64,000 nucleotides of DNA, from contig CP145414.1 in the NCBI GenBank assembly GCA_036867785.1, forward strand, positions 1,240,001 through 1,304,000, in the 5' to 3' direction. The notes under the pieces are model-generated. The model did no database searches. It was not told where the DNA came from and was given only the letters and a program-made list of their open reading frames with translations. Below are positions 14,901-17,177 of the stretch, piece by piece (the stretch's first letter is position 1; every line of letters starts with the position of its first letter). Origin of the DNA: Plasmodiophora brassicae (taxonomy: Eukaryota). The translations under genes were made by a program, and so were the position numbers.

Positions 14901-17177
14901 CCTCGTTGGCTTATACACCCCCTTATCTGTCATGAAGGAGAAGATCTCCTGACACGCTTCATCCAGCGGCATCATCCAGAAGCCTTTGAACGCGTCTAGC
15001 TTAAACCAGAACCTCGAGCCTGCCAGGTTCCTCAGTATCGCCTCCTGATGTGGCATAGGCCACGCCACGGCGACACATTTGGCATTAACAGCTCTGAGAT
15101 CAACACAGAACCGCTTTCCGCCCCCTGGCTTCGTCACCACCACCACCGGTGAAGCCCACTTCGCGTTGTAGTTTTCAACGACTAGGCCATACTTCTTCAA
15201 TTGGGCGACGAATTCCTCCATGAAAGCACTGTCCTCCATACTGTACTTTCTGGCTCGGCACCTGTAAGGTTCCGCATCCGGTTTCAGCTCCGTGACAAAT
15301 GGTGTAACCCTGGCTGGACCATCAGGTCCAATGCTCATACGCCAAACGTCCCTATATCTTCTGACGAGTTTCCGAAGCGATTTCCCCATCGCTTGCGGTA
15401 GGCCATTCCTCAATGCGCGCTCGACCATCCCGTCCATCTCCCTTTCCAGGGAGTCTGTGGAATCGGTTCCGATCCTCACATCCTCTGTTTCCTCTTCCTC
15501 CCCTTCCCAGAGAGGTGGCATCTCGTTTGCCATATTGTGCACTTCATCCATGACGTCATTCCCCTTCTTCGGCGTGCTCTTAATGAGTACGTCCAGGGCC
15601 TTCTTTGGGTGGATACCCAAGTCGTCCAACAGCCTCTCCCCTAGGATTATTTCCTTTTCAGGAATGTCCCATACAAGGCATCGGCGCCGGCGAGTGATCA
15701 GTTCGCCTGCCGTCGTCGTCAGTCCCAGATCCAGTATCATCACATGGTAGGCTGTGTGCTTCGTTTCTCTGTCTACCAGACAGAACGTTTCCGGCTTCTG
15801 GAGGTTCTCCATTGTTAACAATGGGTCCCGCTCCATTAGCTCGCGCGCTATGGTCAATGGCATCAGAACGTCAACCGATGTCGCTCCACTGTCCAGAACC
15901 CCAACGTAGTCTTCCTCATGTCCGTTTACACGAACGACTACTTGGTCCCCTGTCCTCTGCGCCCCCTCCGACACTCTTCCTACCACTGGAAGCCATGGGT
16001 ACTCTGACAAGTCGTCATCTTTATCAGATTTGGCCTTACGGGGTCCATCCCTTCCCGTTGGCCCCTTGCGGCGATCCTTCAGCAGGTCTGCGACCTGCTT
16101 CTTGGTAGGCTTCTTCGGGCAACGAAACGCTGGATGTCCAACCTCGTCACAGTTGAAACATCGCAGGTCCTTCCGGTGTCGTTTCGTGTCCCGGCCTCCA
16201 TCGCCTCCCTCATCCGTCTGCGCCCCTCGCTTCCTCGGGGTGGGTTTGACCTTTCCCTTCCCCTTGCCATCCTCACGTCCCGGCTCCATGTACAACATCG
16301 TCTCCTCATACGATGCAGCTCGTTCCTTCAGCACCCGATAGAATTCCAAAGGGTCCTTCTGGAGATCGGTCTGGCGCTTCATGACGAGGGTCCGCATGAG
16401 CGCTTGTAAACCGGATGGGCGCACAGCACCCAGTAGGTACTTGACCAGGTTCTTCCGTCCCTCGCGGGACGTGAAGAGGTCCTGCCACCCGTTGCGCGCG
16501 ACCAATTCCTCGTACTGCTGCACGAGGTTCACGACCCTTGCCGCTGGTGTGGTGATGGTCAGCTTCATCGCCAGCTTCCGCATCTCCCGGTCGATGTTCG
16601 CGTCCGTCGAGCGATCCTGCTCCAGATGCCTCTTCATCCAGTCCATCAGGTCGCTCTCCGTCACCCCCTCGGCGTCCGTGCCGAGTTCCCACTTGCAGAT
16701 CGCCCTGAGCAGACCGGGGTCGATCATACTCCTCACTGACCGTGGGATCTGGCCCTTGGCATTCGGATCGTCCCGGAAGTGATTCCGATACGTCTTCAGC
16801 TCGGCCATGAACGTCGTGACGGCCTTGCGGTCCATGCTCTTCAAGGTCGGCGCCTTGTTCATCTGCAGGACGATCGTTGAGCCTTGCACGCTCTGTCCTT
16901 GTTGTCGATCATCGACGTCATCTTCCAGCAGCATCTCCTGCGCGGTGGCCACCATCGCGTCCTTCTTTGAAACCTTCCCCGAAAGGATGTTCAAGAGATC
17001 TCTGTGACGTCCCAACGGTGATGGTATATCAGCCGTGTAGTATAATCGTCTGTGTCCCCGACCTGCAGCTCCCACGGACGCCGTGCGGACTCCGTGCGCA
17101 CTCCGTGCATGTCCGTCATTCTTAGGGCGGCCTAGCCGGATCACAGCTATTCTTGTCTTATAGCTTGGAGCCGGCAC
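11914..17177 (-). mobile_element. Intact Ty3/Gypsy chromodomain LTR retrotransposon
   Basis: LTRs 11914-12089 and 17003-17177, identical over their aligned length; PPT GAAGGAGGGGAA next to the 3' LTR (12090-12101); TSD CGTC (11910-11913 / 17178-17181), or 5-bp TCGTC/CCGTC if the LTR ends at 17176. Confidence 0.97.
12288..16955 (-). CDS. Gag-Pol polyprotein (~1555 aa): CCHC knuckle, aspartic protease, RT, RNase H, integrase, chromodomain
   Basis: CFNCDEVGHPAFRC; LDSGA; RFCVDLRAVN, LDAFKGFW, WIDD; FSDA/EKE/TDH; H-H-C-C zinc motif plus HLD/SD/E; WKGFSEAEDSWEP chromodomain; single uninterrupted ORF. Confidence 0.97.
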   Translation of the reverse strand: MVATAQEMLLEDDVDDRQQGQSVQGSTIVLQMNKAPTLKSMDRKAVTTFMAELKTYRNHFRDDPNAKGQIPRSVRSMIDPGLLRAICKWELGTDAEGVTESDLMDWMKRHLEQDRSTDANIDREMRKLAMKLTITTPAARVVNLVQQYEELVARNGWQDLFTSREGRKNLVKYLLGAVRPSGLQALMRTLVMKRQTDLQKDPLEFYRVLKERAASYEETMLYMEPGREDGKGKGKVKPTPRKRGAQTDEGGDGGRDTKRHRKDLRCFNCDEVGHPAFRCPKKPTKKQVADLLKDRRKGPTGRDGPRKAKSDKDDDLSEYPWLPVVGRVSEGAQRTGDQVVVRVNGHEEDYVGVLDSGATSVDVLMPLTIARELMERDPLLTMENLQKPETFCLVDRETKHTAYHVMILDLGLTTTAGELITRRRRCLVWDIPEKEIILGERLLDDLGIHPKKALDVLIKSTPKKGNDVMDEVHNMANEMPPLWEGEEEETEDVRIGTDSTDSLEREMDGMVERALRNGLPQAMGKSLRKLVRRYRDVWRMSIGPDGPARVTPFVTELKPDAEPYRCRARKYSMEDSAFMEEFVAQLKKYGLVVENYNAKWASPVVVVTKPGGGKRFCVDLRAVNAKCVAVAWPMPHQEAILRNLAGSRFWFKLDAFKGFWMMPLDEACQEIFSFMTDKGVYKPTRSMQGGMNSAPQYQGRMFEVFGELMFHKLIIWIDDLMGHAQREDDWFRTLERTLMLAERHSIKFNVEKCELFTTEVRFCGRIFTPEGVRHDPARIEALMAIPQPRTARDLQQFLMATQWMSRSIPEYNRKVHLLQRIYEDAMKDQPGRTKAIARRVRLCKYGWSPEHALAFEKLKMAVADTVQLAYPRKDRIQCLFSDANEVNSAAVVTQIPPEDLGKPVHGQRHEPLGFVGHKFAGPERNWSTVEKEGFAIKDGIDKLDYLVTTNEQFRLFTDHRNLVRIFSPTDVSKPTAQKLQRWALDIQRVNYVIEHIAGEDNVWSDLMTRWGAPDGGPDDQHLEVRTIRRITLQIEDGYRVRPLQRKEFQWPTVDEIRKAQRKWLRGTKRPKNGDDLFVTGKGQVIIPDECNELKLQLCAIAHAGGNSGHLGLKASLRKLGEFCHWAHCDEDMRTFCNACLNCLPTRGGVRIPRPLGTAVHGVRPNQVIHLDWLYMMAAQKGGRHDLQWNLIIRDDLSGMVKITPDHTPNAETTVEALLEWRAIFGTFELMVSDMASCFLANVVKELARRCGFAHHPTVAYGHYSNGSIEVINRNYLQLVRALLSELQWDKYDWPWLNHNIEHTINHRSQARTNGNAPVTVMMGRQPDNPLKQVFKRPGDEKYGEATLSKEHIQELVMQLQTSLNEMHKGAVQQSKKIRAVHRKRSDAYRRATAPNFQIGDYVLIGLPEPGKVPGKKLFMKWRGLYQITDSHENYTYEVRNMFNETDTRTVHGDRVRLYEHGKVNATEELKRQMDYDNERFAIEVFKDCRHSPETGELELLIGWKGFSEAEDSWEPICRLAMDVPKLVKAHAARMRKEKHHLADEVKELLKAEGVQ

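What the first reader, a model, noticed from the sequence alone, without database searches (positions are those of the whole stretch)
16994..17003. Palindrome instead of a tRNA primer-binding site in both LTR elements
Seen: directly after the 5' LTR of the intact Gypsy lies GAGATCTC (AGAGATCTCT, 16994-17003). Directly after the putative LTR of the divergent gag remnant lies GTGATCAC (ACAGTGATCACTGT, 8789-8802). Both are palindromes centred on GATC at the same offset from the LTR-terminal ACA, with compensating differences. Neither starts with the TGG expected for tRNA-CCA priming, and I see no complementary tract in the LTR of the Tf1 self-priming type. Inference: tRNA-independent priming or dimerisation by pairing of two genomic RNAs through a self-complementary site.
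Basis: partly seen in the sequence, partly recalled or inferred. Interest (0 to 1): 0.75.

Follow-up and report, generated by a model that had tools for sequence, protein, structure and literature searches.

The report
Palindrome replaces retrotransposon primer site
A group of gypsy-type jumping genes in the clubroot parasite carries a short self-pairing sequence, different in each family but always a perfect palindrome, exactly where such elements normally dock a tRNA to start copying themselves, which suggests that two copies of their RNA pair there and one primes the other.

Summary
Confirmed and extended. Both palindromes are at the stated coordinates, and 8791 is a true LTR end (full-length copies). 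In this genome (Plasmodiophora brassicae by protein identity), 19 of 19 WIDD/FADD gypsy loci with an LTR pair, plus the window's family, carry a perfect 8- or 10-nt palindrome starting at the first base after the 5' LTR. There are ten different sequences, always followed by a T that pairs with the LTR's last A. GATC is not conserved; symmetry is, including the central pair, which cannot pair in a hairpin. tRNA and Tf1-type tests are negative here and positive in copia (9 of 12) and YLDD gypsy controls (4 of 5) from the same genome. Best reading (0.5): two element RNAs anneal at this site and one, once nicked, primes the other. Priming itself is not shown. The layout is in print for fungal GalEa copia elements (CHSeq1, PMC5445492), without a mechanism. 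This scan has noted the feature before, in this genome and in others. New variant of a known kind.

The parts
17003..17178 (-). 5' LTR of the intact gypsy (family A), 176 nt, ends ...GTCACA; its first base is G in this copy, T in the other copies
16994..17003 (-). Palindromic site: LTR-terminal A (17003) + GAGATCTC (17002-16995) + T (16994), at the position of the primer-binding site
16956..16993 (-). Short leader; its first bases can pair loosely with the U5 end; ATG at +48
12288..16955 (-). Single gag-pol ORF, 1555 aa: zinc knuckle (weak), RT with WIDD motif, RNase H, integrase, chromodomain (below the Pfam cut-off)
12090..12101 (-). Polypurine tract directly before the 3' LTR
11914..12089 (-). 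3' LTR of family A, TG...CA, followed by target DNA GACG (11913-11910), not by the palindrome
8674..8791 (+). 5' LTR of the family B remnant, 118 nt, TGTGG...CACA
8789..8802 (+). Palindromic site of family B: ACA + GTGATCAC (8792-8799) + TGT
8803..9401 (+). Leader and start of gag of family B, 96% identical to a full-length copy; truncated, ends in a fold-back copy (9358-9484)

Best explanation
The palindrome is the functional replacement of the primer-binding site and works between two molecules. Step 1 (shown): in this gypsy lineage the bases after the 5' LTR are free to change in sequence and in length (8 or 10) but stay perfectly self-complementary, fixed to the LTR end, with the LTR's last A included. 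Step 2 (inferred, strong): two element RNAs in the particle anneal antiparallel there, a 10-12 bp duplex that is often extended by loose U5/leader pairing. Step 3 (inferred, by analogy with Tf1): one strand is nicked near the 3' side of the palindrome, probably by the element's RNase H, or a short R-U5-palindrome transcript is used; its 3' OH then primes minus-strand strong-stop DNA on the partner RNA. Dimerisation and priming would be one event. Because the site is rebuilt from a template copy and a primer copy in each cycle, a change on one side could be mirrored to the other, which would explain the many compensated and symmetric length changes (inference).
For: Ten different perfect palindromes at +1 in 12 element types of this genome; the next base is T in 12 of 12. 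Further palindromes in metagenome relatives, three with independently fixed LTR ends. The central pair takes all four forms (AT, CG, GC, TA) over 14 distinct sequences; the cores give no hairpin alone (0.0 kcal/mol in 14 of 14) but self-duplexes of -8.9 to -17.7. Length switches between 8 and 10 several times on the RT tree; no odd length was seen. No tRNA match above 9 nt in 12 types, against 13-21 nt in 9 of 12 copia loci. No LTR complement in 12 of 12, against z below -3.3 in 4 of 5 YLDD gypsy. U5 end and leader of the same family pair better than swapped ones, p 0.001-0.008. Minus-strand DNA must begin within a few bases of the LTR end (established knowledge), so the primer has to pair with these bases. 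RNase H cleavage of an RNA-RNA duplex is how Tf1 makes its primer (PMC7175516, passages).
Against: No direct evidence of a nick, a primer or a dimer. The tRNA set covers 28 isoacceptors and lacks initiator Met, Phe, Pro, Trp and Tyr. Family D has a 9-nt match to the D-arm of tRNA-Asp, reached by 1% of shuffles (1 of 12 tests). Three old or environmental copies are imperfect: GTGACCAT (C16:430 kb), GTGATCAA (L218, LTR end fixed) and TTGATAAA (L198). The flanking pairing is not significant per family against shuffles (1 of 12 below 0.05), and the swap test treats related families as independent. In MMTV a palindrome inside the PBS proved unnecessary for dimerisation (PMC8096270, passages). How plus-strand transfer works after a nick at this site is unresolved.
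Confidence: 0.5

Rival explanations
1. The palindrome is a dimerisation or packaging site only (like the retroviral DIS or Ty1 PAL1/PAL2), and priming uses something else, such as a protein or an unidentified small RNA.
For: Symmetry of the central pair shows pairing between molecules but not priming. Self-complementary sequences in the 5' UTR dimerise Ty1 RNA (PMC6844567, passages).
Against: Known dimer sites occur in addition to a PBS (PMC5445492, passages). Here the palindrome is fixed at +1 in every family and nothing else is left to bind a primer.
Confidence: 0.2
2. Snap-back priming within one RNA: the RNA is cut after the palindrome, and the end folds back as a hairpin and primes on its own U5.
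For: With its flanks the region folds into hairpins centred near the site in several families; U5 and leader co-vary weakly.
Against: A hairpin needs a loop of three or more bases, yet the two innermost pairs stay complementary in 14 of 14 sequences, and the core alone does not fold. Computed dimers are 9.5-20.7 kcal/mol better than two monomers (concentration ignored).
Confidence: 0.12
3. The symmetry acts on DNA: a palindromic site for a dimeric protein (element Gag or integrase, or a host factor), or an aid to plus-strand transfer; the primer is of another kind.
For: Double-stranded palindromes are typical sites of dimeric proteins (established knowledge); DNA-level symmetry also explains the central pair.
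Against: All positions vary and the length varies, unlike a protein site; it still leaves no primer site.
Confidence: 0.1
4. Each family uses a tRNA, tRNA fragment or other host RNA that my set lacks.
For: The tRNA set is incomplete; 3 of 12 copia controls also found no partner in it; family D has a 9-nt tRNA-Asp match.
Against: Ten unrelated sequences would each need a host RNA that happens to be palindromic. The 13-nt complement of the family A site occurs 28 times in the genome, all at family A copies.
Confidence: 0.04

Closest known systems
Conserved Hairpin Site (CHSeq1/CHSeq2) of fungal GalEa Ty1/copia elements (Donnart et al. 2017, PMC5445492; passages; supplementary files 3 and 4)
   Same: No tRNA PBS; the last A of the 5' LTR plus 8 bases plus T form a 10-bp palindrome directly after the LTR; no Tf1-type complement; loose larger hairpin at the LTR junction; mechanism unknown; the authors raise the DIS comparison.
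   Different: GalEa are copia, these are gypsy. CHSeq1 is nearly fixed (CTGATCAGT or CTAATTAGT in 85% of families; the second may be a RIP product of the first, my inference from the low GC of most of those families). Here sequence and length vary freely with symmetry kept. CHSeq2, a downstream inverse copy with one mismatch, is absent here (best 3-6 mismatches); it is also missing in 5 of the 44 GalEa families listed.
Tf1/Tf2/Tj1 and Tf1/Sushi/Tcn1 self-priming chromoviruses (PMC7175516, PMC4600332, PMC6317226; passages)
   Same: Gypsy with chromodomain, no tRNA; the primer would come from element RNA by a cut in an RNA-RNA duplex.
   Different: [quoted passage not shown] That is absent in 12 of 12 palindrome types and present in 4 of 5 YLDD elements of the same genome.
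Retroviral DIS and Ty1 PAL1/PAL2 dimerisation palindromes (PMC6844567, PMC8096270; passages)
   Same: [quoted passage not shown]
   Different: They lie apart from, or inside, a normal tRNA PBS; here the palindrome is the whole site and is fixed to the LTR end.
Oomycete and Spongospora gypsy elements with a WIDD-type RT (P0030, P0062, P0073, P0083, P0085, P0086)
   Same: Same RT clade as the palindrome families (FastTree support 0.88 for the WIDD group).
   Different: Their DNA after the LTR could not be read here, so whether they carry the palindrome is untested.

Membership tests
Ty3/gypsy LTR retrotransposon | Direct LTRs TG...CA, PPT, target duplication | tested here: met
   176-nt LTRs, PPT, 3-4 bp duplication in the window; 4-5 bp in other copies
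Ty3/gypsy LTR retrotransposon | Order RT, RNase H, integrase in pol | tested here: met
   Pfam RVT_1 608-764, RT_RNaseH 878-988, Integrase_H2C2 1092-1143, rve 1163-1259 (weak)
Chromovirus-type gypsy | Chromodomain at the integrase C-terminus | tested here: inconclusive
   Chromo E 0.00095, 19.5 bits, cut-off 25.1; many close relatives carry PF00385. No reference chromovirus sequences were in the tree.
tRNA-primed LTR element | Site complementary over 10 nt or more to a tRNA 3' end or half-tRNA | tested here: not met
   Best 5-9 nt for 12 types against 64 distinct tRNA sequences of 28 isoacceptors; control 13-21 nt in 9 of 12 copia loci; set incomplete
Tf1-type self-priming | Complement of the site within the 5' LTR | tested here: not met
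   0 of 12 (exact match 4-7 nt, z -1.3 to +1.1); control 4 of 5 with 10-14 nt, z -3.3 to -4.9
GalEa Conserved Hairpin Site | LTR-terminal A + palindrome + T directly after the 5' LTR | tested here: met
   12 of 12 types
GalEa Conserved Hairpin Site | Sequence CTGATCAGT or CTAATTAGT | tested here: not met
   None of 14 distinct palindromes; family B and L185 share the TGATCA core
GalEa Conserved Hairpin Site | Downstream inverse copy CHSeq2 | tested here: not met
   Best 3-6 mismatches within 80 nt in 12 of 12
GalEa Conserved Hairpin Site | Host element is a GalEa copia | tested here: not met
   RVT_1 and gypsy domain order
Dimer initiation site | RNA dimerises through the palindrome | not testable with these tools
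   Only computed energies
Partner-primed initiation (proposed) | Element RNA ending in the palindrome at the 5' end of strong-stop DNA | not testable with these tools
   Only assembled contigs could be laid

The most novel reading that the evidence does not exclude
A third way to start LTR reverse transcription, beside tRNA priming and Tf1 self-priming: partner priming, in which the two packaged RNAs pair through a sequence-free palindrome at the LTR end and one supplies the primer for the other. It would be the rule in a broad WIDD gypsy lineage of protists, would explain the fungal GalEa site as a convergent case in copia, and would give each family a self-recognition code that mutates symmetrically.
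Probability: 0.45. Interest if true: 0.85.

Novelty: new variant of a known kind. Interest (0 to 1): 0.62.

Why it matters
How elements without a PBS start reverse transcription has been open since the GalEa site was described in 2017 with no fitting model. The covariation here turns a conserved motif into a testable rule: symmetry matters, sequence does not, and the innermost pair points to two molecules. One small genome holds three priming modes side by side (half-tRNA copia, Tf1-type gypsy, palindrome gypsy), which gives natural controls. If true, dimerisation and priming are one step and need no host primer. It would also mean that annotation tools that demand a tRNA PBS miss or downgrade this lineage.

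Tried and rejected
Sequencing runs: no RNA holder listed on record. Four runs were laid; all were assembled contigs, with no joints and no start or end sites, so they say nothing on priming; no variant letter was listed between 16840 and 17044. Viral contig scan: no relative. Of 80 metagenome loci, 27 with the most upstream DNA were examined; most do not reach a 5' LTR. L169 has a 12-nt candidate with no fixed LTR end and is not used as evidence. A second site at C12:788 kb that looked like a duplicated palindrome is a family A copy with a small insertion in U5. GATC as a conserved motif: rejected. CHSeq2: absent. An 8-nt match of family A to tRNA-Ala is at chance level (10% of shuffles). Strong family-specific flanking hairpins: not supported per family. 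Troyka paper (PMC12440569): term search found no 'primer' or 'PBS'. Literature searches listed no paper on a palindromic site in gypsy elements; I read listings only, except for the papers cited. The library lacks most subscription journals and Repbase reports, and the 2001 Cryptococcus paper proposing 'novel mechanisms of priming' for Tcn2-5 (cited in PMC7175516) was not seen, so absence from print is not established. Look-ups of earlier findings by sequence and near the window returned nothing.

Full report
Observation. Window 16994-17003 is AGAGATCTCT and 8789-8802 is ACAGTGATCACTGT. The intact element lies on the minus strand between LTRs at 17003-17178 and 11914-12089 (176 nt, one difference). 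Its single 1555-aa ORF starts 48 nt after the LTR and holds RT (WIDD motif), RNase H, integrase and a weak chromodomain. A DNA search found 27 places with LTR plus leader, and the base after the LTR starts GAGATCTCT in all 27. The remnant's LTR is 8674-8791; two full-length copies elsewhere fix its end at 8791. A protein 100% identical over the searched region is named as from Plasmodiophora brassicae.

Other families in the genome. An RT search gave 150 scored places. I fetched 40 of them, chosen to cover the identity classes. Thirty belong to the WIDD/FADD group; 19 of these showed an LTR pair that fixes the 5' LTR end, and 19 of 19 have a perfect palindrome from +1. The other 11 had no pair or an interrupted one. 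With family A, the sequences are GAGATCTC (A), GTGATCAC (B), GTGCGCAC (C), GTGGCCAC (D), AAACCGGTTT (E), AAGCTAGCTT (F), GAAACGTTTC (H), AAAACGTTTT (I), GAAGCTTC (J) and TTGCGCAA (K, RT motif FADD). In the 12 types analysed further (B and C have two each) the next base is always T, so the palindrome includes the LTR's last A. Background is 85 of 11,972 CA/TA sites, 25 with the T. None of the 19 3'-LTR flanks is palindromic (by eye). A wider junction search over the fetched loci, including 20 more, gave 89 rows; loci overlap, so rows are not copies. 86 are perfect and in register, 1 is displaced by a deletion, and 2 (one old place, 73% identity) read GTGACCAT. The six YLDD gypsy loci with a clear LTR pair, of ten fetched, have no palindrome.

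Relatives elsewhere. Of 80 metagenome loci, 27 were examined. LTR ends are fixed by a second LTR copy for L147 and L150 (AAGAATTCTT), L185 (TTGATCAA, by an 83% relative) and L218 (GTGATCAA, one outer mismatch, LTRs 92.6% alike). L141, L142, L153 (AAGAATTCTT), L143 (AAGATATCTT) and L165 (GAACGTTC) have the motif at the expected place without a fixed end; L198 reads TTGATAAA. A FastTree tree of 40 RT segments groups the palindrome families with Phytophthora, Pythium, Aphanomyces and Spongospora elements (support 0.88), apart from the YLDD elements; lengths 8 and 10 alternate within subclades. The oomycete DNA could not be read.

Tests for known primers, with controls. tRNA: 94 gene calls, 64 distinct sequences, 28 isoacceptors, from an Rfam search that scored 63 of 457 candidates and from 60 regions around T-arm pattern hits, which cover part of 108 hits. 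Best matches anchored at +1 to +4 are 5-9 nt. Family D reaches 9 nt to the D-arm of tRNA-Asp (1% of shuffles); the others are at chance. The same test gives 13-21 nt to half tRNA-Asn or tRNA-Lys in 9 of 12 copia loci. Initiator Met, Phe, Pro, Trp and Tyr are missing from the set. The 13-nt complement of the family A site occurs 28 times in the genome, 27 at the places and one at an interrupted copy. Tf1 type: 0 of 12 palindrome types have an LTR complement beyond shuffles, while 4 of 5 YLDD elements have 10-14 nt.

What the covariation says. Over 14 distinct palindromes the innermost pair is A-T in 4, C-G in 6, G-C in 2 and T-A in 2; the second and third pairs take three forms each. The two innermost bases are neighbours and cannot pair within one strand, so a hairpin does not explain their symmetry. 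The cores do not fold alone but form self-duplexes of -8.9 to -17.7 kcal/mol. With flanks, computed dimers beat two monomers by 9.5-20.7 kcal/mol, as expected of any palindrome and so weak evidence. Beyond the core, U5 and leader of the same family pair better than swapped pairs (20 elements; p 0.008, 0.001, 0.004 for 8, 10, 14 nt), but only 1 of 12 is significant on its own against shuffles.

Mechanism. Minus-strand DNA has to start within a few bases of the LTR end (established knowledge), so the primer must pair with these bases. The only RNA that is complementary to them in every family is a second copy of the same RNA. I therefore favour pairing of two element RNAs, followed by a nick, or use of a short R-U5-palindrome transcript, that leaves a 3' OH pointing into the partner's U5 (0.5). 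The conserved T opposite the LTR's last A fits a primer that is continuous with its own U5. If DNA starts two bases beyond the LTR, as the +2 or +3 start of the complement in the YLDD controls suggests, the primer would end two bases before the end of the core; this is inference. Rivals: dimer site only (0.2), snap-back hairpin (0.12), DNA-level site (0.1), missing host RNA (0.04). No step after the pairing is shown; the laid runs were contigs and could not show ends.

Comparison with print. Donnart et al. [quoted passage not shown] This finding works like that site but is not a member: gypsy host, free sequence and length, no CHSeq2. Bivalve TRIMs also lack a canonical PBS and are compared with it (PMC6934838, passages). 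Tf1-type self-priming (PMC7175516, PMC4600332, PMC6317226; passages) and dimer palindromes of Ty1 and MMTV (PMC6844567, PMC8096270; passages) are the other neighbours. Nine searches listed no description for gypsy elements; the library is partial, and supplements of bioRxiv preprints on this species could not be seen.

Earlier notes of this scan. The same feature was reported at least six times from other parts of this genome and from microsporidian and other protist genomes. I had the ten-palindrome result before that look-up. The notes pointed me to read PMC5445492, which had already appeared in my listings. They are not independent evidence, and I did not test those from other genomes.

Verdict. 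A real, strongly selected feature; a new variant of a described but unexplained kind of site; interest 0.62.

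Noticed in passing
window 10837-11456 and 11811-11913 + 17178-17698: A long, almost perfect inverted duplication (521 + 103 nt, 354 nt between the arms) of a gene fragment with a Myb/SANT domain (PF12776, E 1e-16). Family A inserted into the right arm. It looks like a Harbinger-type transposon fragment (recalled; the neighbouring ORF 11438-11932 has no Pfam hit).
   Followed up: partly
window 9277-9484: The family B remnant ends in a fold-back: 9358-9484 is an inverted copy of the preceding gag sequence.
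   Followed up: partly
window 17178: The 5' LTR of this copy begins with G where the 3' LTR and the other copies have T; it reads as a 4-bp duplication with the first T lost, or a 3-bp duplication with a substitution.
   Followed up: partly
L111, L112, L113, L114, L118 (LTR interior): YLDD gypsy elements of Tf1 type carry a second copy of the PBS core just upstream of the self-primer, so the two can form a hairpin (seen by eye); a similar note exists for another genome (e1-7323663).
   Followed up: no
L301-L312: Copia elements of this genome match half tRNA-Asn or half tRNA-Lys from +1 (9 of 12 loci); the other three start GGTT(A/T)TGG, probably half initiator tRNA-Met (recalled, not in my set). 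Some copia LTRs do not end TG...CA.
   Followed up: partly
L093-L095; L142, L150: Family D and some metagenome relatives have LTRs that end in TA instead of CA, yet family D copies have LTRs 99.5-100% alike.
   Followed up: no
L108, L109: Family K has FADD at the RT catalytic motif; the wider clade has WIDD instead of YxDD.
   Followed up: no
L221 (G000:C12:788 kb): An insertion of about 730 bp with terminal inverted repeats and an 8-bp duplication sits in the U5 end of a family A copy.
   Followed up: partly
window 46850-47014: Tandem array of an 18-nt unit, about seven copies.
   Followed up: no
window 17796-18962 and 60771-62618 (minus and plus strand): An ankyrin-repeat-like ORF with a hydrophobic N-terminus, and a BTB-like ORF with a signal-peptide-like start and a 375-nt internal repeat; both look like secreted-protein types (by eye).
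   Followed up: no
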